Source of the DNA: a virus
Virus record (IMG/VR): IMGVR_UViG_3300025343_000001
Length of the DNA stretch: 8,343 nt
Reading direction: 5' to 3' (one strand)
Part shown: positions 1 to 8,343 of the stretch, piece by piece
Numbering within the stretch: the stretch's first letter is position 1
Layout of the letters: the number at the start of each line of letters is the position of its first letter
Position numbers and translations under genes: made by a program
Notes under the pieces: generated by a model
What the model was told of the DNA's origin: nothing
Databases searched by the model: none
The model's input: the letters and a program-made list of their open reading frames with translations, nothing else

Positions 1-127
1 AAGATGCGGTGGCAACTGCAACACCGATGTTTGACACAGGGACCGTGCGATAGAGCGGCGTCTGCACGTTCTATTCGCTGGTTGAACCGAGTCGAAATGA
101 TGTTGATGGCGATTAACATATTCGCTG
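1..127. repeat. Terminal direct repeat, left copy (exact 127-bp match to 8217..8343); signature of a circular molecule linearised with overlap
   Basis: Direct comparison of both window ends: 127/127 identical, and the repeat abuts both window edges. Implied unit length 8,216 bp. Confidence 0.95.
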
Positions 128-137
128 TTGCGAATAT
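118..137. promoter_or_regulatory. Perfect 8-bp inverted repeat (atattcgc / gcgaatat) with 4-nt loop tgtt, in the main non-coding region
   Basis: Stem 118..125 pairs with 130..137. It sits at the start codon (117..119) of the first small Cys-rich ORF in circular coordinates and at the edge of the terminal repeat. Confidence 0.4.
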
Positions 138-350
138 CAAGCCGGTTGATTTGAACCCCTGATTGATCATGTAGAGACCGGGCATCGCGAATAGAAACGC
201 AACTGCAACAGCTCGCATTATCACCCACGAATGTGAAGTCCACGGTTCGACCGGGGAGGTCGAGCGGATCACGACTAGATCGACAAAGCGGTCGATCGGG
301 TTCGTGGGTGTGTCATATTTGGAACTCATAATGTGAGGTTCGAGGGAGGG

Positions 351-752
351 TTACCGAACAGCGACACCCCAGGCGACGACGGTCGCGAGGAACGCGACGA
401 TCGGGCCGAGGTTGCTGCTAGTGTTGATAACGTCGGCGACCTGGGGAACGTACTGGTAGCTCGCGATGATGACCGGGCCGAGAGCGATCGCGACCTGTTC
501 CCACTGCTCGTAACTGTCAAACTGCTTAGTCTCACTGCTGGCGAAGGCAATCGCGTAGGCGCCCAGGGAGATGAATGTGGCGTGTTCGGCGGTGAGCGTG
601 TAGTCGATCCACGTCAGCAGCACCTCCGAGATCCCGCCGAACTGGTAGAGCCCGGCGATGATGAACACGACTGACAGCAGCGCGGGAAGCGTCCGCAGGT
701 GAGTGTAATCCGAGAGGACGTTGCCCATCGAGTTTGAGTAGGACGACGCCAT
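351..752 (-). CDS. Small integral membrane protein, about 4 predicted TM helices (possible virion internal membrane protein, VP3-like)
   Basis: 133-aa ORF with four hydrophobic stretches (LPALLSVVFIIAGLY, ATFISLGAYAIAFA, VAIALGPVIIASY, LGPIVAFLATVVAWGVAV). Its ATG overlaps the upstream stop as ATGA at 752. The membrane-protein call is from sequence; the VP3 analogy rests on gene order only. Confidence 0.6.
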   Translation of the reverse strand: MASSYSNSMGNVLSDYTHLRTLPALLSVVFIIAGLYQFGGISEVLLTWIDYTLTAEHATFISLGAYAIAFASSETKQFDSYEQWEQVAIALGPVIIASYQYVPQVADVINTSSNLGPIVAFLATVVAWGVAVR

Positions 753-1099
753 CAGGAGTCACCCTGAATCTTGCAGAAGGTGGGAAGGTAGTTCCCGCCG
801 TCGTCCAGCTCCTGCTCTTCGACACCACGGGCGATCCAGGCGGTATCACCAAGTTGGAGGTTGCCCTGCTTGAGCGCAGTCTTCACCTCATCTTTGGCGA
901 AATAGTCCACGACACCACGGTCTTTGTCCTTGATTGTGAGGCGGAACCACGGACCGTATTCGCTTTCCCCTTCGGTGATATCGAGGACAAACCCGACCAG
1001 CGTTTCACCAGGAGAAAGTTCGATTGCTTCCGATCCATCCGACGTAGGCGCGGCGGCATCAATGAAGCCGTCCGGCGCGGTTGGCGTTTCACTCGACAT
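752..1099 (-). CDS. Hypothetical small acidic protein (116 aa from the ATG at 1099; the ORF is open back to an ATG at 1183)
   Basis: ORF 752..1183 on the minus strand. The internal ATG at 1099 is preferred because codons upstream of it run through an AT-rich promoter-like island. No recognisable motif. ATGA coupling to the downstream membrane protein gene. Confidence 0.5.
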   Translation of the reverse strand: MSSETPTAPDGFIDAAAPTSDGSEAIELSPGETLVGFVLDITEGESEYGPWFRLTIKDKDRGVVDYFAKDEVKTALKQGNLQLGDTAWIARGVEEQELDDGGNYLPTFCKIQGDS

Positions 1100-1195
1100 T
1101 GCAATTACAAATGTGAACGATTTGCATATAAAGCATGAACCTGTGCGGAGTGAAAGTAAAACCCAGAACCAGCAGCACACCATGATTTATTATAT
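1100..1195 (-). promoter_or_regulatory. AT-rich promoter-like island between the replication gene stop and the small acidic protein gene
   Basis: Only strongly AT-rich stretch in this part of the window. On the minus strand it carries TATA-like elements (ccatataaatataataaatc near 1185..1204, ctttatatgc about 25-35 nt upstream of the ATG at 1099) and a short T-rich run after the upstream stop. Archaeal TATA and leaderless-mRNA logic is established knowledge; the assignment here is inference. Confidence 0.4.
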
Positions 1196-3229
1196 TTATA
1201 TGGTACTTTTGACTGTAGATCGGATTTCGTCGAGCGCGGACGGTGGGAGCATGAGCTGGCCAGCGATGGAGATAGGCGAAGTCTCGCCAGTAGTCTCAAC
1301 CAGCTCCCTAATCGCAACCAGCTCGCGTTCACCGAGTTTCGGTTCGGGTGACGACTGTCTCTCGAATCGGGTAGTGTACCAGTTATCAGACCACTGCTTT
1401 GGTGTCAACCGACGATCTGCGTGAACAGTTTCGCACCACTCGCGAGCGACCAGCTCCGGCGGGGGAACTCGACCGGAGCGAACATCAGATTCGTCGAAGA
1501 ACGACGGGTTTTCCCAGGGTTCCGGCCCTTCGAGGGAAGAGGATAGCGGGAGATACGGAAAGTCGGTTTTATCCATTATCGAGCCGGCTCCCTCAACGAC
1601 GATCGTGCCGTAGGCCGTAGCACCGGGAGATCCGATTTCGGTCACTTCCTCTGTTGAGAGCTGAACAACAGCATCAGGTGACCATTCGGGTTCCCGATCG
1701 AATCCATCTCGTTTCGTTTCAGCAGGTGGAGCTTCAGCAGAATCAGGTATCGGTACCTCTGCTGAAACCGTATGATTCGGAGATTCGGTTTCAGTGGCAC
1801 AGAGGGGACAGGTATCTGGTTCGGCGTGGCCACACCGTCGAAGGCGTGTCTCAGAACCGATCGACCCGGCCGATCGAGCCGAAGGCCACCGTTCTGCAAG
1901 TGTTTGAGGGATCTCATCAGTCTCTTCCTGGTCATCTGCAGATTGAGACAGACGGAAGCGTGCAAGCGACGACTCAGATTGATCGATACCGTGAGGGGAC
2001 CCGCACTCCGCGCATTCGTAGGTGAGTCCCGGTCTTGAAGAACGGACGATTGAATCGCCATGTTCAACAATCTGACCGGTTTGGGAGTCGAGATACTGTT
2101 GTTGACAGGCATCGGCTTTGACAGCCGCCGTTGCCCACCGCGAGCGGCTGTATTTCTGTGTCGTCGTCGACCATTGAGAGGCGGCCCAAATTAAATACTC
2201 GTCCGAACGCTCAAGGAGGTCTTGGTCCGGATCGACGGCGACATATTCGGAGACGTAGGACGCGAAGTCCTGAATCTCGTCGTCTTTGCGCACAGTCACT
2301 GCACGATCCATATCGTGTGCAGACCAAGCGGCGCCCTCACACTCAGAGACGTGTTTCGCGACGACCGGACGGTAAGTCTCTGGGTCAGTTGCGACACTCG
2401 TGGAGATCGCAGCTGCATCGAGGATAACGACGGGATGGCTGTGAGAATAGCCCGTCGCGTCTTCCTGTGGGCCGGGATGGGGTTCGGACTGCCAGTGCCA
2501 GACGTATTCACCGGACGAGAGTCCGAGTTTGTCCTCAAGAACATAGCGAAGCGTTCGTTTCACCGAATTTGAAGAACCTGACCACGCATCACGAATCCCC
2601 CGATCGTGATCAGCTATCGGACGAAACGACCCATCGTCCTCAAGCGACGAGGCGGTCAGACCGAACAAAACCGTAACGGGCTCGGAGAACTCGGGTTCGC
2701 AAGTATGTCCCCTCGGATATTCTCCACCCATAAACTGACGCTCTAAAGCCTTGAGACGTGCGTACTGGGCAGTCTGATACGACGGGGTGAGACTGTTGTC
2801 CATATCGATCAAGAACGATTCGTAGTCGTTCCGGACCTCGGAGCCGCGAGCCATCCGAAGAAACTTGTCGCGATATCCTTCGTACCATTCAAGCATTTCC
2901 TGAATGCCAGCGATCAGCGGGAGAGACCCACGCGAAACGGTTTCCTCGATCTTTTTCTCTTCGGTTTCGCCAATTTCAACGACCCGAGTGACCGTCTCAG
3001 GCTCCTCAAGTACCTCTTCGCGAAGTTTCCGACCGTGGACGGTGGAGATAGGTTCGAAGACGCGATCTCCGTACCGTTCGATAATTCCAGAGATCCGTTC
3101 TTCAACGGTCGGGAGACCGGAAGGACGGAAAGATAGTTCTGGTGACTCAGGGCCTGTATCGGTCGACGCGGGGTTAGTCACGTTGGATAGCCAAGCCGCA
3201 TCCGCATCGGCTTCCCGCGGCGAGCTCAT
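1196..3229 (-). CDS. Putative replication initiation protein, 677 aa, with an HUH-like motif and a Cys4 zinc-ribbon-like region
   Basis: Longest ORF in the window. HSHPVVIL (codons at 2420..2443) fits the HUH motif 2 of rolling-circle Rep proteins. Upstream VLFGLT (about 2654..2671) is a weak motif-1 candidate; downstream tyrosines YRPVVAK and YVSEY (about 2243..2257) are motif-3 candidates. CAEC ... CGH ... CPLC lies at about 1799..2014. No Walker A motif. The function is inferred from motifs only. Confidence 0.5.
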   Translation of the reverse strand: MSSPREADADAAWLSNVTNPASTDTGPESPELSFRPSGLPTVEERISGIIERYGDRVFEPISTVHGRKLREEVLEEPETVTRVVEIGETEEKKIEETVSRGSLPLIAGIQEMLEWYEGYRDKFLRMARGSEVRNDYESFLIDMDNSLTPSYQTAQYARLKALERQFMGGEYPRGHTCEPEFSEPVTVLFGLTASSLEDDGSFRPIADHDRGIRDAWSGSSNSVKRTLRYVLEDKLGLSSGEYVWHWQSEPHPGPQEDATGYSHSHPVVILDAAAISTSVATDPETYRPVVAKHVSECEGAAWSAHDMDRAVTVRKDDEIQDFASYVSEYVAVDPDQDLLERSDEYLIWAASQWSTTTQKYSRSRWATAAVKADACQQQYLDSQTGQIVEHGDSIVRSSRPGLTYECAECGSPHGIDQSESSLARFRLSQSADDQEETDEIPQTLAERWPSARSAGSIGSETRLRRCGHAEPDTCPLCATETESPNHTVSAEVPIPDSAEAPPAETKRDGFDREPEWSPDAVVQLSTEEVTEIGSPGATAYGTIVVEGAGSIMDKTDFPYLPLSSSLEGPEPWENPSFFDESDVRSGRVPPPELVAREWCETVHADRRLTPKQWSDNWYTTRFERQSSPEPKLGERELVAIRELVETTGETSPISIAGQLMLPPSALDEIRSTVKSTI

Positions 3230-3254
3230 CGGTCACCTGCAGTCGACTCCATGT

Positions 3255-3671
3255 TCACAGAAACCGCCCCCGCCCAGCAGACTCGGAGAGGCCCGGCCCA
3301 AGGCCGGGTGCGGCGACAGAGTCGCCGGTCGGGTCAGCCCCCCGTTGAAGGGGGGCTGCTTCCGCCCGTGATTGCGACGGCGATTGGCGCTCGCCGTCGC
3401 TTCCGCCACCGCCACTCGTTTGGCGAGCTTCGGTCGCCTGTGAGCGGTCGGCGCAGCTAGATCCGCGTTCGAGGCAGTCGAGCGCGTGGCCGTATTCGAT
3501 TCCCGTGGTCAGGTTGCTGGTACATCTCTGTCCGCAGACAGGACACCAGAATTCACCCGGGCCGTCAGCGGTGAGATGAGAGTTGGAGTTAGAACGGGAA
3601 CCGAGAGTCGCGTCGCTGGAGAGATCATCTAGATCGGCGTCCTCGACGAAGTCGGAGAGATCGTCGTCCAT
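3255..3671 (-). CDS. Small zinc-finger protein with acidic N-terminus (138 aa from the ATG at 3671; the ORF is open back to 3794)
   Basis: ORF 3255..3794. The ATG at 3671 is preferred because upstream codons cross the AT-rich promoter island and hairpins. Contains CPVCGQRC ... H ... C ... C (CxxC plus His/Cys). N-terminus MDDDLSDFVEDADLDDL is encoded by the 48-bp repeat. Confidence 0.5.
   Translation of the reverse strand: MDDDLSDFVEDADLDDLSSDATLGSRSNSNSHLTADGPGEFWCPVCGQRCTSNLTTGIEYGHALDCLERGSSCADRSQATEARQTSGGGGSDGERQSPSQSRAEAAPLQRGADPTGDSVAAPGLGPGLSESAGRGRFL
3292..3357. promoter_or_regulatory. Cluster of three consecutive perfect GC-rich hairpins just upstream of the replication gene start (candidate origin or operator)
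   Basis: Hairpin 1: cccggcc/ggccggg, 7-bp stem, loop caa (3292..3308). Hairpin 2: cggcgac/gtcgccg, 7-bp stem, loop aga (3311..3327). Hairpin 3: agcccccc/ggggggct, 8-bp stem, loop gttgaa (3336..3357). It overlaps the 3' end of the zinc-finger ORF. Confidence 0.4.
3621..3668. repeat. 48-bp imperfect direct repeat, copy A (43/48 identical to 4903..4950); encodes acidic motif DDDLSDFVEDADLDDL
   Basis: Manual alignment of gagatcAtctagatcggCgtcctcgacgaAgtcggagagAtcgtcgTc against copy B gives 5 mismatches. Contains tctagatcgg. Confidence 0.85.
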
Positions 3672-3735
3672 GACGAAATTAATTCTAGGGAGATACAACA
3701 TATATGTTTTGGTCTGTGATAGCAGTGTTGACACT
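3672..3735 (-). promoter_or_regulatory. AT-rich promoter-like island upstream of the zinc-finger and replication gene pair
   Basis: Minus strand reads aaaacatatatgttgtatctccctagaattaatttcgtc immediately before the ATG at 3671. A TATA-like element sits about 25-35 nt upstream of the start codon, consistent with a leaderless transcript. Confidence 0.4.
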
Positions 3736-3751
3736 AAGGGTATTGTAAGCC

Positions 3752-3812
3752 GCGCGGCCCCCCACAAGGAGGGGCCGCGCAGGCTGCCGCCCACTGAAAA
3801 GGGTGGGTGGGT
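3752..3812 (-). terminator. Hairpin plus T-tract terminator-like structure downstream of the NTPase gene
   Basis: Perfect 10-bp GC stem gcgcggcccc/ggggccgcgc (3752..3761 with 3771..3780, 9-nt loop), followed by a second shorter hairpin cccac/gtggg whose loop on the coding strand contains TTTT. It lies directly after the NTPase stop and before the promoter-like island. Confidence 0.4.
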
Positions 3813-3860
3813 CGGTGAGTGGAGAACCGTGTTTAGATGTGATTATCGGACGAATTATGA

Positions 3861-4817
3861 CTATGCCGGTCCACGGTCGCGAAGCTCATCAAGAAGATCG
3901 GGCCAGTCGAGGTCGAGTGCGAATAGGTCGGGTTCGAGGTTCCAGTCCCACGGCGCCGCGTCATTCGGGTCCGGTTCCGCGGTGGCAGGTTCGAGATTTT
4001 CCAGGGACCCGCCGAACAGCTGATCGGTAGGCTTGTCGGCATCAGCAGGCCAGTTTTCGAAGAAGTCGACTTCCTTCTTTGAGTGTTTGAAGTACGCGGT
4101 CGTGAACAGCCGCTTCAGCTCAGGGTGACAGTCCTTGCCCGTGTGGAACACCGTGCCGAACACGTCGACGTTGACCTTCGCCATCCGCTTGGCGAGCGGC
4201 GAGAATTGCGCCGCGACCTCGTAGGAGTTAGTTCGAGCATCGAAGTGAGTCGACCCCTCATCGATGAAGACGAACTTCGGCCGATCGCGATGTTTGATGC
4301 AGGTGACTGCGAGGTCGTGTGCGCTGGTAACGACCTTGTCCGTGAGCGGCCAGGTCCGCGAGTTAGATATGACAAGGAGATCGTCGACGGTCGCGGAACG
4401 GAGCTCGGCAAGCAACGACATCAGGTTCGTCTTGCCCGTGTTCGGGTTACCGCAGCCACCGATGAACGCGGTCGCGTCATTGTTGGTCATCATGTCGTCG
4501 AGCCGCAGCGGGAGACGCAGCGCCGAGGCGTCGAGGTCCTGCTCAGTGATACCGACCAAATGTGAGAGCAACAAGGAGTTACCAGAATGGATCGCTTCGG
4601 ACGCCTGCCGGGACTGCTGGGTCCGATCGACGAGGGACAGCAGCTCGGAGTGCCCGGACACGTCGGGATCAATATCGTCGAGGAACACAGAGGCAGCCAC
4701 ATCGTCGGGAGCGAGTGCACCCGCACCGGAGGCGAGGTTTCGGTCCGTATCGATGTTCCCGGCCAGCTGTTCGGCGAGCTTCGCCGCGGTCAGCATCCCC
4801 TCATCGGAATCACCCAT
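3861..4817 (-). CDS. P-loop NTPase (Walker A GNPNTGKT, Walker B FVFIDE); candidate virion-associated ATPase
   Basis: 318-aa ORF. Walker A is encoded at 4428..4451 (checked by reverse-complement translation) and Walker B about 50 residues later at about 4257..4274. Start overlaps the upstream gene by 8 nt. Confidence 0.8.
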   Translation of the reverse strand: MGDSDEGMLTAAKLAEQLAGNIDTDRNLASGAGALAPDDVAASVFLDDIDPDVSGHSELLSLVDRTQQSRQASEAIHSGNSLLLSHLVGITEQDLDASALRLPLRLDDMMTNNDATAFIGGCGNPNTGKTNLMSLLAELRSATVDDLLVISNSRTWPLTDKVVTSAHDLAVTCIKHRDRPKFVFIDEGSTHFDARTNSYEVAAQFSPLAKRMAKVNVDVFGTVFHTGKDCHPELKRLFTTAYFKHSKKEVDFFENWPADADKPTDQLFGGSLENLEPATAEPDPNDAAPWDWNLEPDLFALDLDWPDLLDELRDRGPA

Positions 4818-5652
4818 CGGCGGACACCTCCGGTTTCTCTACGTGGCCGTTCCGATCAGTAGCGGGCTCGGGCTCCGAAAAGTCGAACCCGGACTTGTGG
4901 TCGAGATCGTCTAGATCGGAGTCCTCGACGAGGTCGGAGAGGTCGTCGCCGGAGTCGTCAGCCAGTCCGAACTCCTCAAGTTCCTGGTCGATCGCACGGC
5001 CGAGTCCGTCGCCCGAGTCGGGGAGCGAGCCGTCCTCGAACAACTCGACGACGCGCTCAACGGTGTTGCGGGTGGCGCGGCGGACGACCGTGAACGCGGA
5101 GGTTTCGAGGATGAATCCGCGCTGGGCGTCTTCCTGGAGTTGGCCGCGGCATTCGTGGACCGCACGAAGGGCACGGGTAAGCTCCCGATCGTCAAGCGTG
5201 CCGCGCCAGGTTCCTACGACGGTCATGTCTTCTAGGTCGACCTGTTTTGAGACGTAGAGGTTCGGGGACAGTTGGGTGATGTCGTAGGAGGTGTTGATGA
5301 ACCCGTCGTCGTCGAGAACGTCCATTTCGCGGAAGTCCTCGGGCGGGAGTCGGTAGATACCGCCGTCGAGTACGCGGGCATCGAGGTCGATCAGCCAGAC
5401 AAACGAGGGGTTGTAGAGCCAGCTAACGACCTTCGAGCCGGTCCACCAGCCGAGAGGCGTCGCGAACAACGCGGCGAATCCGGCGATGCGCCAGAAGCGG
5501 GGAATCGATGCGTCGAAGCCAGCGACCATCGCGACGATCGTGGTGACGACAGACAGCACGATCAGCTGGGGAACGCGAGCGCGGGCCCAGTCGAGTAGGT
5601 CCAGGTGAGCGGGCTGTTCGTCTCGGGTCGAAGGTGGGTCATGCTGAGTCAT
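4810..5652 (-). CDS. Membrane protein with two N-terminal TM helices and a long acidic C-terminal domain
   Basis: 280-aa ORF with hydrophobic segments VPQLIVLSVVTTIVAMVAGF and IAGFAALFATPLGWWTGSKVVSWL. ATGA start/stop overlap with the upstream gene at 5649..5652. C-terminus carries the acidic DDLSDLVEDSDLDDL motif encoded by the 48-bp repeat. Confidence 0.65.
   Translation of the reverse strand: MTQHDPPSTRDEQPAHLDLLDWARARVPQLIVLSVVTTIVAMVAGFDASIPRFWRIAGFAALFATPLGWWTGSKVVSWLYNPSFVWLIDLDARVLDGGIYRLPPEDFREMDVLDDDGFINTSYDITQLSPNLYVSKQVDLEDMTVVGTWRGTLDDRELTRALRAVHECRGQLQEDAQRGFILETSAFTVVRRATRNTVERVVELFEDGSLPDSGDGLGRAIDQELEEFGLADDSGDDLSDLVEDSDLDDLDHKSGFDFSEPEPATDRNGHVEKPEVSADG
4903..4950. repeat. 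48-bp imperfect direct repeat, copy B; encodes acidic motif DDLSDLVEDSDLDDL near the C-terminus of the 2-TM membrane protein
   Basis: gagatcGtctagatcggAgtcctcgacgaGgtcggagagGtcgtcgCc. Same reading frame and peptide register as copy A, but in a different gene. Confidence 0.85.
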
Positions 5653-6182
5653 GCTATTCTCTCGGGTTGTTCAACGCGACCGTAGACGCGGCGAGCGACG
5701 AGATACAGCGTGGTGAGAGCGACACCGAGCGCGGCGCCGACCCCAGCAGCTTGTGAGTCCGAAGCAGTGAACGGGCCGGCGACGATCGTCGAAGAGGTTT
5801 CGAGCGGGACGCCGTACAGTGTGGTTCCGTCGTCGACGGTGACTCCAGCGCGCCCGTCCGAAGAGACGACACGCATGCGGATTTCGGTCTTCCCATCGAC
5901 GATGAAGCTCTGTCTGTTAAGTTCGCGCGGTTCGCGGAGTACAACGGCCTCAGTGACGGTGACGCGATCGCGGGTGTCAGAGTCGAGGACCAGGACGGCT
6001 TCACCGTTGACGAAGTCAGAGGAACAGAGCCGAAGAGTCGGCGTTATCTCTTGTGAACAGGTTTCGGGCTGTTCCACGTCGGTCGGGTTCTCAACGGTCG
6101 CGTTCGGGGAGTCTTGAGCGGCGACAGATCCGGTCAGGGACACCACTATCACGAGAGCGATTAGGAAAGATCGAGGGAGCAT
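5649..6182 (-). CDS. Secreted type-I membrane protein with signal peptide and C-terminal TM anchor (177 aa from the ATG at 6182; the ORF is open back to 6356)
   Basis: From the ATG at 6182: MLPRSFLIALVIVVSLTGSVAAQDS is signal-peptide-like, and the C-terminus has AAGVGAALGVALTTLYLVARR followed by basic residues. The extension to 6356 encodes an Arg-rich stretch overlapping the spike gene in another frame and is probably not translated. Confidence 0.6.
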   Translation of the reverse strand: MLPRSFLIALVIVVSLTGSVAAQDSPNATVENPTDVEQPETCSQEITPTLRLCSSDFVNGEAVLVLDSDTRDRVTVTEAVVLREPRELNRQSFIVDGKTEIRMRVVSSDGRAGVTVDDGTTLYGVPLETSSTIVAGPFTASDSQAAGVGAALGVALTTLYLVARRVYGRVEQPERIA

Positions 6183-6187
6183 GGTTG

Positions 6188-7957
6188 TTAGTTGTTCAGA
6201 CCGAAGAAGGCGACCACGGCACCGACGCCGAGAGCGACGACTTCTCCGGGCAGTCCGAACATGTCGAGCTGTCCGAGGTCGAGGCCGCCGCCGTTGTTCT
6301 GCGAGTCCTCGAACTTCTCGATCAGGTCTTGATTCTGTTTTTCGAGCTGATCCCACTCCTCCTGTGAAACGTAGTTGTCGTCAGTCTGTGGTTGAGCGTT
6401 GTCGAAGCTCGTAGTCGAAACTTCTTCACCAGATTCAGTGTTCATCAACTTGTCGACGCTAAACGGGCCGTCGAGTTGCAGCGTTTCAAACTGCGTCTCG
6501 GTGGCGGCGGAGACGAAGCGCGCAGATTCAACGTTCGTGATGTTGGTTTCGAGGTCAGCCGAGGCGTCGTAGGACCACGTGCCGTCGCCGTTATCCGTCC
6601 AGTCAACAGCAGGGACAGAGACGGTTTCAGAGGCAGCAGTTGTCACTTCGATTGCGGTTCCCTCATACGGTTCCTCAGTGATCGTTATGGATCCACCATC
6701 GACCGCCGTCTCATAGGCGACCCAGTCGCCCGATACAAGACTCGTGTCGGCCGTGAAGTACACATCACCGACGAAGGTGGACGGGTCGTAGGTCGTACCC
6801 GACTCAATCGGGCCGTCCGACGAGTCGGTTAGCCCGAACGTGCCGGACAGCGTTGCGCCAGTGCTGTTGATAGTGATTGTCGCCTCGCGTTCGAGATCGA
6901 CCGGAATATTAAGCGCAATGAGGTCAGAGATTGCCTGCGAGGTGCCTTCCTCCTCGCTCATCATAGCAGCGCGTTCGCGAGGCGTCACGAGGTCACTGAC
7001 CGAGAGCTCGCCGGACTGAACATCGCCGTAGACGTTCGTAACCCACATCGAGATGCCATCCAAGACGCTTTGGTGCACGGTCGAGATCTCGTCATGGATT
7101 CCCTTCCACGTAGGCCCGTCTAAATATATGACGCTTTCGCCGTCGGGGTTGGGGTTGGAAACGATGACGTTGAAGTTATGGTCGACGTTGTAACCGCGCA
7201 CGTCCAAATTCAGAGGATCAGCAACGGCCCGTGCGCCTTCCACCATACCATTCACGCCCTCTAACTGAAAGGTCGACCCATCGAACAACGTAATGTCTCG
7301 GGTCAATTTGTCCGTGAAATTGCCGAAGTCGCGGTCAACCTTAGTGACCCCTGAATCCAGCACCGCACCCGGACTCAGGTCAGGGTGCGACTGCAGAGTC
7401 GACCGCAGATTGTAGAACTCGCGGACCGACTCATTCCATGTCTTGAGTAGATTCTCCTGAACCGTGCTCAGGTAGGCAGACACAGCAGATTTCGCCGCGG
7501 TTTGAACCTCAGACTCAGAGACTCCCGCGTTCAATTGCTCAATGGCGGCGATCTTGGCGTCGACGTAGGCGGTGTTTTCCACGCCGTCAAGGATGTTCTG
7601 GTTGTCGATGATCGTCGAGGCGTTCGTCGACTTCCGGGTTTTCACAGTCTGATAGACCTGCTGTTTCAGCACGTCACCAGTTAGTCCCTCAGCAGGTGCG
7701 TCAGAGCCGACGACCTCGTATTCACGGAGAGCCCAACCGAGTGCGACAGAGCCGGCGACACCACCGGCAATGATAACCGGAGCGATAGCCTGCCCGTTTT
7801 GGACGGGCGAGCCAGCGACTCGTGATCCGCCGTAGTAGGCCGCGCCAGCGCCAATTGTGGTAGCTCCAACCCGGCCAAGGAATTGTCGTCGATTGATACC
7901 TTCGTGATCTAGATCATCATCTAGATCGGTGTGTTTGTTCTTATTCATTGGAATCAC
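6188..7957 (-). CDS. Envelope/spike-like glycoprotein candidate, 589 aa: twin-arginine signal, large ectodomain, coiled-coil-like segment, C-terminal TM anchor
   Basis: N-terminus has INRRQFLGRVGATTIGAGAA (Tat-type RRxFLG motif plus hydrophobic region). C-terminus LPGEVVALGVGAVVAFFGL is a TM anchor, preceded by the heptad-like QEEWDQLEKQNQDLIEKFE. Five N-x-S/T sequons (NAS, NES, NFT, NST, NIT). The spike function is inferred by analogy to pleolipovirus VP4-type proteins. Confidence 0.7.
   Translation of the reverse strand: MIPMNKNKHTDLDDDLDHEGINRRQFLGRVGATTIGAGAAYYGGSRVAGSPVQNGQAIAPVIIAGGVAGSVALGWALREYEVVGSDAPAEGLTGDVLKQQVYQTVKTRKSTNASTIIDNQNILDGVENTAYVDAKIAAIEQLNAGVSESEVQTAAKSAVSAYLSTVQENLLKTWNESVREFYNLRSTLQSHPDLSPGAVLDSGVTKVDRDFGNFTDKLTRDITLFDGSTFQLEGVNGMVEGARAVADPLNLDVRGYNVDHNFNVIVSNPNPDGESVIYLDGPTWKGIHDEISTVHQSVLDGISMWVTNVYGDVQSGELSVSDLVTPRERAAMMSEEEGTSQAISDLIALNIPVDLEREATITINSTGATLSGTFGLTDSSDGPIESGTTYDPSTFVGDVYFTADTSLVSGDWVAYETAVDGGSITITEEPYEGTAIEVTTAASETVSVPAVDWTDNGDGTWSYDASADLETNITNVESARFVSAATETQFETLQLDGPFSVDKLMNTESGEEVSTTSFDNAQPQTDDNYVSQEEWDQLEKQNQDLIEKFEDSQNNGGGLDLGQLDMFGLPGEVVALGVGAVVAFFGLNN
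7906..7927. repeat. Tandem CTAGATC motifs including a perfect 10-bp palindrome gatctagatc, at the 5' end of the spike gene
   Basis: gatctagatc at 7906..7915 and tctagatcgg at 7920..7929. Encodes HTDLDDDLDH in the spike N-terminal region. Same core motif as the 48-bp repeats. Confidence 0.6.
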
Positions 7958-8135
7958 TTCTATCGTTGTCGTCGATCACGGAGCGGATCGCGTCGGAAAT
8001 ATCTCCAGCACAGTCGACACAGTGATCTCCCGCAACATCGGTGTCGACTCCATTGTGCACTTTAACCACAAGGGCAGGACCAGCCCAGCGCTCGTCGATT
8101 CGGATTTGACAGCAGTCGCAGATTATTGGTCTCAT
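7941..8135 (-). CDS. Small Cys/His-rich protein (64 aa from the ATG at 8135; the ORF is open back to 8165), possible zinc-binding
   Basis: CDCC ... H ... HCVDC pattern. The ATG at 8135 forms an ATGA overlap with the stop of the upstream Cys-rich ORF. Its 3' end overlaps the spike gene start by 17 nt. Confidence 0.35.
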   Translation of the reverse strand: MRPIICDCCQIRIDERWAGPALVVKVHNGVDTDVAGDHCVDCAGDISDAIRSVIDDNDRSDSNE

Positions 8136-8335
8136 TGGCATTTCTCCCCGTTTTCGGAAGAGCATATTGAGCTCCCCGAACAGTGCGGGCAGTCTGTTCC
8201 GTGCATCACTGAGTCAAAGATGCGGTGGCAACTGCAACACCGATGTTTGACACAGGGACCGTGCGATAGAGCGGCGTCTGCACGTTCTATTCGCTGGTTG
8301 AACCGAGTCGAAATGATGTTGATGGCGATTAACAT
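8132..8335 (-). CDS. Small Cys/His-rich protein (67 aa), crossing the terminal-repeat junction
   Basis: CVKHRCCSCH ... H ... CPHCSGSSIC pattern. First gene of the apparent spike operon. No clear TATA box upstream, so support is weak. Confidence 0.3.
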   Translation of the reverse strand: MLIAINIISTRFNQRIERADAALSHGPCVKHRCCSCHRIFDSVMHGTDCPHCSGSSICSSENGEKCQ

Positions 8336-8343
8336 ATTCGCTG
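8217..8343. repeat. Terminal direct repeat, right copy (identical to 1..127)
   Basis: Exact identity to 1..127. The minus-strand ORF 8132..8335 runs through it, so in the circular molecule that ORF begins at coordinate 119. Confidence 0.95.

What the first reader, a model, noticed from the sequence alone, without database searches (positions are those of the whole stretch)
7941..8335. Two tandem small Cys/His-rich ORFs leading the spike operon, coupled by an ATGA overlap
Both encode short proteins with clustered Cys and His (CVKHRCCSCH ... CPHC, and CDCC ... HCVDC) suggestive of zinc binding. They occupy the only otherwise unexplained coding space between the non-coding region and the spike gene. 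Small zinc-binding proteins at this position could be regulators or virion-associated DNA-binding proteins. Support is weak because small ORFs arise easily in GC-rich DNA.
Basis: partly seen in the sequence, partly recalled or inferred. Interest (0 to 1): 0.45.

Follow-up and report, generated by a model that had tools for sequence, protein, structure and literature searches.

The report
Two small zinc-ribbon genes before spike
The two short cysteine-rich reading frames are real, conserved accessory genes of an uncultured salt-loving archaeal virus (a pleolipovirus), one of them cut in half by where the circular genome was opened, and they belong to the common class of small zinc-finger proteins of such viruses, with unknown function.

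Summary
The window is a circular 8,216-bp alphapleolipovirus-like genome printed with a 127-nt terminal overlap. Both ORFs are real, but the description needs correcting.

**ORF1.** It is not 67 aa. Across the circle junction it is a 137-codon gene (window 329..1 joined to 8216..8132, minus strand). It starts 21 nt after the internal-membrane-protein (VP3-like) gene. Its product is a two-helix membrane hairpin fused in frame to a C-terminal CxxC…CPxC zinc ribbon. These are separate genes in most relatives.

**ORF2.** It is 64 aa, from ATG 8135, in ATGA overlap with the ORF1 stop. It overlaps the spike ATG by 8 nt. It has 41 distinct nucleotide variants in metagenomes, none with a stop. Its start alternates between ATG and GTG. 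Relatives at 30-50% identity keep exactly four cysteines (C6, C9, C39, C42).

**Position and mobility.** The genes are cistrons 3 and 4 of the structural operon, not its leaders. No non-coding gap lies next to them. They behave as a recombining accessory cassette: absent from cultured pleolipoviruses, and elsewhere placed in front of other genes.

**Limits.** Codon usage is atypical and dN/dS is moderate (0.3-0.5). No Pfam or PHROG family matches and the structure models are poor. Function is inferred only, as zinc-ribbon interaction or regulatory micro-proteins.

The parts
8132..8343 (-). 3' part of ORF1 (codons 68-137 plus stop). It carries the end of TM helix 2 and the C-terminal Cys/His zinc-ribbon tail (module B: SHGPCVKHRCCSCHRIFDSVMHGTDCPHCSGSSICSSENGEKCQ). 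It continues upstream into window 128-329, because 8217-8343 equals 1-127.
   Evidence: Module B is conserved in 13 unique variants with dN/dS 0.28.
1..329 (-). 5' part of ORF1 (ATG at 329..327; bases 1-127 duplicate 8217-8343). Module A covers roughly window 72-329. It has a conserved N-terminal PTNPIDRFVD motif and two hydrophobic helices: residues ~37-55 (window 221..165) and ~62-79 (window 146..93).
   Evidence: Stop-to-stop frame on the circularised sequence. 41 homologues (alignment A2). dN/dS 0.45. Kyte-Doolittle peaks at residues 43-47 and 69-73. AF2 helices 33-56 and 60-93 at pLDDT about 70-82.
7941..8135 (-). ORF2, 64 aa: MRPIICDCCQIRIDERWAGPALVVKVHNGVDTDVAGDHCVDCAGDISDAIRSVIDDNDRSDSNE. 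It is acidic (pI 4.3). The conserved Cys codons are C6 8120..8118, C9 8111..8109, C39 8021..8019 and C42 8012..8010. A C-terminal helix is predicted.
8132..8135 (-). ATGA overlap of the ORF1 stop (TGA) with the ORF2 start (ATG).
   Evidence: ATGA or GTGA occurs in all 38 distinct junction contexts. An SD-like GGGGAG lies 8 nt upstream.
7941..7948 (-). 8-nt overlap of the ORF2 end (…AAT GAA TAA) with the spike start (ATG AAT AAG).
   Evidence: The same overlap occurs in L002/L008 and L004.
8217..8343 (.). Terminal redundancy of the contig, identical to window 1-127. It marks the circle junction that cuts ORF1.
   Evidence: Contiguity is confirmed by linear relatives L004 and L009.
351..752 (-). 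Context: the internal membrane protein gene (VP3/VP4-like), directly upstream of ORF1.
   Evidence: phrog_5900 at E 3e-60. 82% aa identity to the Humcor2 internal membrane protein.
6188..7948 (-). Context: the spike protein gene (Tat-type RRQFLG signal), directly downstream of ORF2.
   Evidence: phrog_2231 at E 8e-114. PF26255 Viral_env_HRPV on the homologue in L002.
7904..7939 (-). Conserved junction element at the 5' end of the spike gene: AACAAACACACCGATCTAGA followed by the hairpin GATCTAGAT-GATG-ATCTAGATC. This is where homology between cassette variants breaks.

Best explanation
**Shown.** The window is a circular alphapleolipovirus-like genome with all genes on one strand. Between the internal-membrane-protein gene and the spike gene lie two tightly packed accessory genes.

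- ORF1 (137 aa) is an in-frame fusion of a small two-helix membrane protein (module A) with the C-terminal half of a zinc-ribbon gene (module B). In most relatives module B is a separate ORF.
- ORF2 (64 aa) is a soluble, acidic CxxC…CxxC protein with a C-terminal helix.
- Both families are conserved at the protein level in dozens of metagenome contigs.
- Their evolutionary history is uncoupled from the flanking structural genes, so they behave as a recombining cassette.

**Inferred.**
- The genes are transcribed with the structural operon from a TATA-like box about 30 nt upstream of the gene that precedes VP3. They are translated by coupling: a 21-nt gap, then ATGA, then an 8-nt overlap.
- Each Cys quartet binds one zinc ion and forms a zinc ribbon.
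- By the positive-inside rule, the ORF1 ribbon faces the cytoplasm or the particle interior.

**Most likely function (inferred, low confidence).** They are dispensable accessory micro-proteins that act through zinc-ribbon-mediated binding of nucleic acid or of a partner protein, modulating expression or host interaction. The analogy is to the small CPxCG-type zinc-finger proteins of haloarchaea. They are probably not core virion building blocks.
For: **Genome and setting**
- Circularity and the true ORF1 extent.
- Pleolipovirus identity: DUF1424 Rep; PHROG matches for spike, VP3, ATPase and others; Humcor2 similarity.

**ORF1**
- 41 homologues resolve module A (usually a 106-aa protein) and module B.
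- In L002, module B is a separate ORF starting at a GTGA overlap.
- Several different in-frame A+B junctions exist (window, P0001, P0002, P0003, P0009).

**ORF2**
- 58 loci and 41 unique nucleotide variants, all open in the sense frame. Two of the 41 have stops in the aligned antisense frame.
- Third codon positions vary most: 19/14/27 variable columns by codon position.
- dN/dS is 0.49 in the sense frame and 0.74 in the antisense frame.
- 13 of 29 invariant residues show synonymous codon variation.
- Distant members (P0067, P0070, P0072, P0074, P0076, P0077, P0080) leave only C6, C9, C39 and C42 invariant.

**Cassette behaviour**
- Window versus L055: VP3 is 56% nucleotide-identical but ORF2 is 93%. 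Window versus L004: VP3 is 98% but ORF2 is 87%.
- ORF2 also precedes an 81-aa gene, a 78-aa CxxC gene, a Dam methylase and a 142-aa gene of unknown function.
- Module B is also found fused behind Dam, PadR and DUF6884 proteins.
- Distant ORF2 relatives sit in arrays of small same-strand ORFs.

**Dispensability**
- Cultured relatives have VP3 and spike adjacent: overlapping in HHPV-2, gaps of 5-128 nt in HRPV-1, Humcor2 and HRPV-6, and a single 34-aa ORF between them in Halfgib1. Here the gap is 618 nt.

**Operon**
- TATA-like TTTATAT lies 30 nt upstream of ATG 1099. No TATA-like motif precedes ORF1, ORF2 or the spike gene.

**Precedent**
- Small zinc-finger proteins that regulate the adjacent gene (Brz, PMC2253796).
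- CxxC proteins are common in haloviruses (PMC7911831).
Against: - Codon usage is atypical. GC3 is 0.52-0.60 and codon log-odds are near zero; for ORF2 the antisense frame scores slightly higher.
- Purifying selection is only moderate (dN/dS 0.3-0.5). Synonymous divergence is much lower than in the flanking genes, which could also reflect constraint on the DNA itself.
- No curated family matches above threshold in Pfam, PHROGs, NCBIfam or PADLOC.
- AlphaFold models are poor: pLDDT 48 for ORF2 and 58 for ORF1. The zinc-ribbon fold is therefore inferred from motif spacing alone.
- Some ORF2 copies in relatives are truncated or degenerate.
- There is no expression, zinc-binding or functional data of any kind.
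Confidence: 0.7

Rival explanations
1. Virion component. ORF1 would be a minor envelope protein whose near-neutral zinc-ribbon tail faces the particle lumen and tethers or condenses the naked genome. ORF2 would be a co-packaged or assembly cofactor, made in step with VP3 and the spike protein.
For: - The position is exactly between the two major structural genes, with translational coupling.
- ORF1 is predicted to be a two-helix membrane hairpin.
- The ORF1 tail has pI about 7.1, whereas ORF2 is strongly acidic at pI 4.3.
- Module B is fused to DNA-binding proteins elsewhere, PadR and Dam.
Against: - It is absent from all cultured pleolipoviruses examined, which assemble without it.
- Most relatives have module A without the ribbon.
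- ORF2 occurs in non-structural contexts and in early-gene-like arrays.
- The cassette history is uncoupled from VP3 and the spike gene.
Confidence: 0.15
2. Not protein-coding. The conservation would reflect a DNA or RNA element (origin, operator, recombination site or structured leader), and the ORFs would be chance open frames in moderately GC-rich DNA.
For: - Codon usage is atypical, and A/T-ending rare codons are conserved.
- dS is low relative to the flanking genes.
- A 156-codon antisense open frame exists.
- A strongly conserved 20-mer with a hairpin lies next door.
Against: - Homologues at 30-50% identity keep only the four Cys and the overall length.
- There are 0 stops in 41 variants, and ATG/GTG alternates at the start.
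- Several independent in-frame fusions of module B occur.
- There is no Rfam or tRNA hit.
- Substitutions are concentrated at third positions and at chemically similar residues.
Confidence: 0.05
3. One gene split by a sequencing or assembly frameshift at 8132..8165.
For: - The two frames overlap by 34 nt if ORF2 is started at ATG 8165.
- One metagenome protein (P0039) joins module B to the second half of ORF2.
Against: - The same stop/start overlap is present in 25 distinct module B-ORF2 junction contexts from independent samples.
- ORF2 occurs without module B, after module A, after VP3 or after other genes.
- P0039 is a deletion variant, not a frameshift correction.
Confidence: 0.02
4. The real gene is on the plus strand: the 156-codon open frame at 7908..8375, antisense to ORF2 and the ORF1 tail.
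For: - It is a long open frame.
- Its codon log-odds are slightly higher than the sense frame over ORF2.
Against: - dN/dS is 0.74 against 0.49 for the sense frame.
- Stops appear in 2 of 41 variants.
- Its first ATG is only at 8220.
- All other genes are on the minus strand.
- It is the codon-aligned antisense frame, where stops correspond to the sense codons TTA, CTA and TCA; from general knowledge these are rare in haloarchaeal genes (not measured here), so its openness would be expected.
Confidence: 0.03

Closest known systems
Small CPxCG-related / C(P)XCG zinc-finger micro-proteins of haloarchaea (e.g. Brz of Halobacterium salinarum, HVO_2753 and HVO_0758 of Haloferax volcanii; PMC2253796, PMC6562870, PMC11241148)
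   Same: - ORF2 is about 60 aa, acidic, and has two CxxC knuckles as its only strictly conserved residues.
- Like Brz, it is encoded directly upstream of, and in the same orientation as, the gene it might influence.
- The long form of module B has a canonical CxxC…CPHCG ribbon.
   Different: - The ORF2 knuckles are CDxCQ and CxDCA, with no Pro and no Gly.
- There is no detectable sequence homology to any curated family.
- It is virus-encoded.
- ORF1 is 137 aa and membrane-anchored.
- Zinc binding was not tested, and some C(P)XCG proteins do not bind zinc (PMC11241148).
'CxxC motif proteins' annotated in haloarchaeal viruses and proviruses (Humcor2 HrrHm2_005/_080/_085, Halfgib1, Hardycor1; PMC7911831)
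   Same: They are small halovirus ORFs with one or two CxxC pairs, tightly packed with neighbouring genes, and of unknown function. Hardycor1 HrrHc1_050 likewise combines CxxC motifs with a transmembrane helix.
   Different: - Those genes lie mostly outside the assembly module, near Rep or the integrase (PMC7911831). Here they lie between the two major structural genes.
- tblastn found no sequence similarity to any record in the phage collection.
Halfgib1 HfxHg1_025, a 34-aa ORF between the internal membrane protein and spike genes
   Same: It is the only cultured-virus example found here of an ORF in the same intergenic position.
   Different: It is much shorter, was not shown to be related, and is a single ORF.

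Membership tests
Haloarchaeal one-domain C(P)XCG zinc-finger micro-proteins | Length of 70 aa or less | tested here: met
   ORF2 is 64 aa. ORF1 is 137 aa and fails this criterion. Stand-alone module B forms are 51-88 aa.
Haloarchaeal one-domain C(P)XCG zinc-finger micro-proteins | At least two C(P)XCG-type motifs | tested here: inconclusive
   ORF2 has two invariant CxxC pairs, but they lack Pro and Gly (CDxCQ, CxDCA). The ORF1 tail has CxSCH and CPHCS. Only the long module B form has CPHCG.
Haloarchaeal one-domain C(P)XCG zinc-finger micro-proteins | Binds one zinc ion | not testable with these tools
   AF2 models are of low confidence. This needs metal analysis of purified protein.
Pfam zinc-ribbon families (Zn_Ribbon_1 PF13240, DZR PF12773, Zn_ribbon_8 PF09723, DUF7129 PF23455) | Score above the curated gathering threshold | tested here: not met
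   ORF2 gave no hit. The ORF1 tail scored 13 bits against DUF7129 (cut-off 30). Long module B scored 23.8 bits against Zn_Ribbon_1 (cut-off 25) and 19.3 against DZR (cut-off 27.3).
YgiT/MqsA-type zinc finger (TIGR03831) | Profile match or profile-profile similarity | tested here: not met
   Only distant ORF2 relatives hit, below the cut-off (14.9 and 13.5 bits against 20.2). hhalign of A4 against E. coli MqsA gave 10% probability over 15 columns.
Pleolipovirus conserved core genes | Present at a syntenic position in characterised pleolipoviruses | tested here: not met
   Absent between VP3 and the spike gene in HRPV-1, HRPV-6, HHPV-2, Humcor2 and Halfgib1. tblastn found nothing significant in the phage collection: no hit for ORF2, and only chance-level hits (E about 7-9, unrelated bacterial phages) for the ORF1 tail. 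No significant PHROG family (ORF2 none; ORF1 only a weak phrog_24592 match, E 0.018).
Halovirus 'CxxC motif protein' class (descriptive) | Small virus-encoded ORF with CxxC pairs, conserved among related elements | tested here: met
   The location inside the assembly module is atypical for the class (PMC7911831).

The most novel reading that the evidence does not exclude
The module B-ORF2 pair is one unit of a cassette-exchange system in pleolipoviruses. Small accessory genes would be shuffled into a hotspot immediately upstream of an exactly conserved 20-36-nt junction: AACAAACACACCGATCTAGA plus a GATCTAGAT hairpin, which forms the first codons of whatever gene follows. The exchange would be driven by recombination at that element, possibly mediated by the viral Rep or an integrase. 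The zinc-ribbon proteins themselves might recognise the palindrome as an operator.
Probability: 0.12. Interest if true: 0.6.

Novelty: new member of a known kind. Interest (0 to 1): 0.3.

Why it matters
- It corrects a gene model. A contig opened inside a gene made a 137-aa membrane plus zinc-ribbon protein look like a 67-aa ORF beside a non-coding region.
- The supposedly invariant VP3-spike junction of pleolipoviruses can host accessory genes.
- It defines two unannotated small-protein families (module A/B and the ORF2 family), with clear candidate zinc ligands for mutagenesis.
- Small zinc-finger micro-proteins are abundant and mostly uncharacterised in haloarchaea and their viruses. A virus-borne, recombining pair placed inside the structural operon is a tractable case for asking what such proteins do.
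- The finding itself is not surprising to a specialist.

Tried and rejected
- **Structure route.** AF2 with the family alignments gave pLDDT 48 (ORF2) and 58 (ORF1). I did not run fold searches, because matches to such models are meaningless.
- **Solved structures by sequence or profile.** Only chance-level hits: PKC C1, CopA, and the ribosomal L32 zinc ribbon.
- **Curated libraries.** Pfam, PHROGs, NCBIfam and PADLOC gave nothing above threshold.
- **MqsA/YgiT resemblance.** This lead came from memory and was not supported.
- **ClpX zinc-binding-domain resemblance.** Also from memory. No Pfam hit was found and I did not pursue it.
- **Other collections.** IMG/VR scans for ORF2, VP3 and module A found no relatives. 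An alignment that included distant members was too divergent for the scan. GTDB genomes gave only a spurious 35%-identity hit in an Acidobacteriota MAG. The window's own ATPase is not on record, so the source sample is unknown.
- **RNA alternatives.** There are no credible Rfam hits (two chance-level matches elsewhere in the window) and no tRNA.
- **Rolling-circle nick site.** A CTCTCGGC-type site (from memory of haloarchaeal RCR plasmids) is not enriched or informative.
- **Codon usage as a coding test.** It is uninformative here, since the cassette is atypical yet conserved.
Full report
**1. What the window is**

Bases 1-127 are identical to 8217-8343. The window is therefore a circular element of 8,216 bp written with a terminal overlap.

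All credible genes are on the minus strand:
- a DUF1424 rolling-circle Rep;
- clear PHROG matches for the pleolipovirus internal membrane protein (phrog_5900, E 3e-60), spike (phrog_2231, E 8e-114), ATPase (phrog_1979) and three further conserved proteins.

The nearest cultured relative is the alphapleolipovirus Halorubrum virus Humcor2. It shares 81.5% nucleotide identity over parts of the structural block.

Around the circle the order is: p143 - internal membrane protein (752..351) - ORF1 - ORF2 - spike (7948..6188) - p235 - p280 - ATPase - a CPxCG-containing ORF - Rep.

**2. Checking the observation**

The two ORFs exist as listed, and the quoted Cys/His strings are there.

*The ATGA overlap.* It is real, but it involves the third in-frame ATG of ORF2 (8135..8133) and the ORF1 TGA (8134..8132). 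ORF2 then ends (TAA 7943..7941) 8 nt inside the spike gene (ATG 7948..7946).

*The ORF1 boundary.* This is the important correction. When the circle is closed, the ORF1 frame stays open from 8132 up to the equivalent of 8566. Its first ATG is at window 329..327, only 21 nt after the stop of the internal-membrane-protein gene. ORF1 is therefore 137 codons. The ATG at 8335 is an internal Met in a hydrophobic helix. The apparently non-coding stretch at window 1-350 is the 5' half of ORF1.

*Contiguity.* It is independently confirmed by linear metagenome contigs in which Rep, a 115-aa gene, VP3, a 131-aa ORF1 homologue, a 65-aa ORF2 homologue and the spike gene follow one another (L004; L009).

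**3. ORF1 is modular**

A database search with the 137-aa product found 41 relatives. Their sequences resolve two modules.

*Module A (residues 1 to ~86).*
- It has a conserved PTNPIDRFVD motif and two hydrophobic helices.
- Support for the helices: Kyte-Doolittle peaks and AF2 helices 33-56 and 60-93 at pLDDT about 70-82.
- In most relatives it is a separate 106-aa protein with a short HGHTCGRTDISxNSEDQQ tail.

- In L002 it is a separate, uncalled ORF that starts at a GTGA overlap with module A.
- In L005-L007 and P0035 it has a longer form with an extra N-terminal CxxC…CPHCG ribbon.
- The window carries an in-frame A+B fusion. Other contigs carry different in-frame junctions (P0001, P0002, P0003, P0009).
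- Module B is also found fused behind a Dam methylase (L041), PadR-type regulators (P0035, P0038) and a DUF6884 protein (P0034).
- In 13 unique variants the conserved residues are PC, RC, SC, CPHC and IC. The second Cys of 'CCSC' and the last Cys vary. dN/dS is 0.28.

**4. ORF2 is a conserved micro-protein**

*Breadth.* Searches gave 25 close protein clusters. A metagenome scan gave 58 loci.

*Coding signal in the close set.*
- 41 distinct full-length nucleotide variants were extracted, all open in the sense frame.
- Codon 1 alternates ATG (29) and GTG (12). Every junction reads ATGA or GTGA.
- Third codon positions vary most.
- 13 of 29 invariant residues show synonymous variation.
- dN/dS is 0.49 in the sense frame and 0.74 in the codon-aligned antisense frame, which has stops in 2 variants.

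*Distant relatives.* A profile search of 1.84 billion representatives added relatives of 56-63 aa, plus one 124-aa protein with an extra C-terminal hydrophobic extension, at 30-50% identity. With them aligned, the only invariant columns are C6, C9, C39 and C42. This is the strongest evidence for a translated Zn(Cys)4 protein.

*No family or structure.* ORF2 matches no Pfam, PHROG, NCBIfam or PADLOC family and no solved structure. Its AF2 model is unreliable (pLDDT 48).

**5. Place in the genome**

- In cultured pleolipoviruses the internal-membrane-protein and spike genes are adjacent. They are 5 nt apart in HRPV-1, overlapping in HHPV-2, 86 nt apart in Humcor2 and 128 nt apart in HRPV-6. Halfgib1 has one 34-aa ORF between them.
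- Here 618 nt separate them, fully occupied by ORF1 and ORF2.
- No TATA-like sequence precedes ORF1, ORF2 or the spike gene.
- A TTTATAT box sits 30 nt upstream of ATG 1099, the likely true start of p143, whose phrog_6009 match begins at residue 29. A second box sits about 30 nt upstream of ATG 3670.
- I therefore infer that ORF1 and ORF2 are cistrons 3 and 4 of one leaderless structural operon in which nearly all junctions are overlaps or gaps of about 20 nt or less. They do not lead it.

**6. A recombining cassette**

*Uncoupled histories (matched pairwise comparisons).*
- Window versus L055: VP3 is 56% nucleotide-identical (dS 1.6) but ORF2 is 93% (dS 0.12).
- Window versus L004: VP3 is 98% but ORF2 is 87%.

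*Variable neighbours.*
- ORF2 is followed in different contigs by the spike gene, an 81-aa gene, a 78-aa CxxC gene, a Dam methylase or a 142-aa gene of unknown function.
- It is preceded by module B, module A, VP3 or other genes.
- One contig has two copies (L041). Some copies are truncated.
- Distant relatives lie in arrays of small same-strand ORFs typical of accessory regions.

*Absence elsewhere.* Neither family was found in the phage collection, IMG/VR or GTDB genomes.

*Codon usage.* It is atypical (GC3 0.52-0.60, log-odds near 0), which fits a mobile origin.

**7. Mechanism**

*Shown.* These are two conserved, tightly coupled genes. One encodes a membrane hairpin with a Cys-rich tail. 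The other encodes an acidic four-Cys micro-protein.

*Inferred.* Zinc binding rests on motif spacing and exclusive conservation of the Cys residues. Cytoplasmic or lumenal orientation of the tail rests on the positive-inside rule. Co-transcription and coupled translation rest on the gene spacing and promoter motifs.

*Function.* My best estimate is accessory interaction or regulatory micro-proteins, by analogy with Brz. Brz is a small zinc-finger protein encoded directly upstream of the gene it regulates (PMC2253796). The wider class of C(P)XCG micro-proteins (PMC6562870, PMC11241148) and the halovirus CxxC proteins (PMC7911831) offer the same analogy. Fusions of module B to PadR and Dam give a weak hint towards nucleic-acid-related roles.

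*Rivals.* A role as a minor virion protein that tethers the genome is the main alternative (about 0.15). The non-coding, frameshift and antisense-gene alternatives are unlikely, for the reasons listed under the rival explanations.

**8. Verdict**

The feature is a new member, in fact two new unannotated families, of a well-known kind: small zinc-finger proteins of haloarchaeal viruses. Its unusual aspects are the position inside the structural module and the mosaic, fusion-prone architecture. Interest is modest (0.3). The most novel possibility not excluded is that the exactly conserved junction element next to ORF2 marks a cassette-exchange hotspot.

Noticed in passing
window 7904-7939 (minus strand); also L030 34-53, 101-120, 535-554: The 20-mer AACAAACACACCGATCTAGA (codons 4-10 of the spike gene, MNKNKHTDLD) is exactly conserved in 24 of 69 fetched loci. 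In the window it is followed by a hairpin with a 9-bp stem and 4-nt loop, GATCTAGAT-GATG-ATCTAGATC (DNA fold z -2.2). Homology between contigs with different downstream genes breaks within or after GATCTAGA. In L030 the element occurs three times, within a ~67-bp repeat unit, on both sides of an ORF2 copy; one copy lies inside a short 31-aa ORF of doubtful significance. It could be a recombination junction or an operator.
   Followed up: partly
window 3621-3666 and 4903-4948: A 46-nt direct repeat (91% identity) encodes the acidic peptide DDLSD(F/L)VED(A/S)DLDDL. It lies at the N-terminus of the ORF upstream of Rep and near the C-terminus of p280. It shares the CGATCTAGATGAT core with the spike-start element.
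   Followed up: no
window 3255-3794 (minus strand): The listed 179-aa GTG ORF probably starts at ATG 3670 (MDDDLSDF…), with a TATA-like ATATAT about 30 nt upstream. It contains a CPVCG motif and occupies the position of the 'CxxC motif protein' upstream of Rep in Humcor2 and Halfgib1.
   Followed up: partly
window 1097-1196 (minus strand): An AT-rich 96-nt spacer follows the Rep stop. It carries TTTATAT (1132..1126) 30 nt upstream of ATG 1099. This is the likely leaderless promoter of the whole structural operon. p143 probably starts at MSSETP rather than at 1183.
   Followed up: partly
window 7908-8343, continuing to 1-159 (plus strand): A 156-codon antisense open frame covers ORF2 and the ORF1 tail. 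Its first ATG is at 8220, which is the listed 4..162 ORF. It behaves as a shadow frame: dN/dS 0.74, with stops in 2 of 41 variants.
   Followed up: yes
window 5649-6356 (minus strand): The listed 235-aa GTG ORF overlaps the spike gene by 169 nt. The likely start is Met59 (ATG 6182), which begins a signal-peptide-like MLPRSFLIALVIVVSLTGSVAAQ, 5 nt after the spike stop. phrog_1938 matches from residue 65.
   Followed up: no
L034 (JGI Ga0306907_1000474, 17.4 kb contig) 800-6924: This is a larger integrase-carrying relative. Module A and ORF2 lie upstream of an 81-aa gene, a multi-helix membrane protein, a 174-aa protein and a 505-aa spike-like gene. They follow PadR-like and SWIM-like genes. So the cassette is not always between VP3 and the spike gene.
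   Followed up: partly
L041 2561-3728: Two ORF2 copies flank a Dam-type methylase (PF05869), whose C-terminus is fused in frame to module B through the linker QQTLVTDGGQ. The unfused methylase in L038 ends at that linker.
   Followed up: partly
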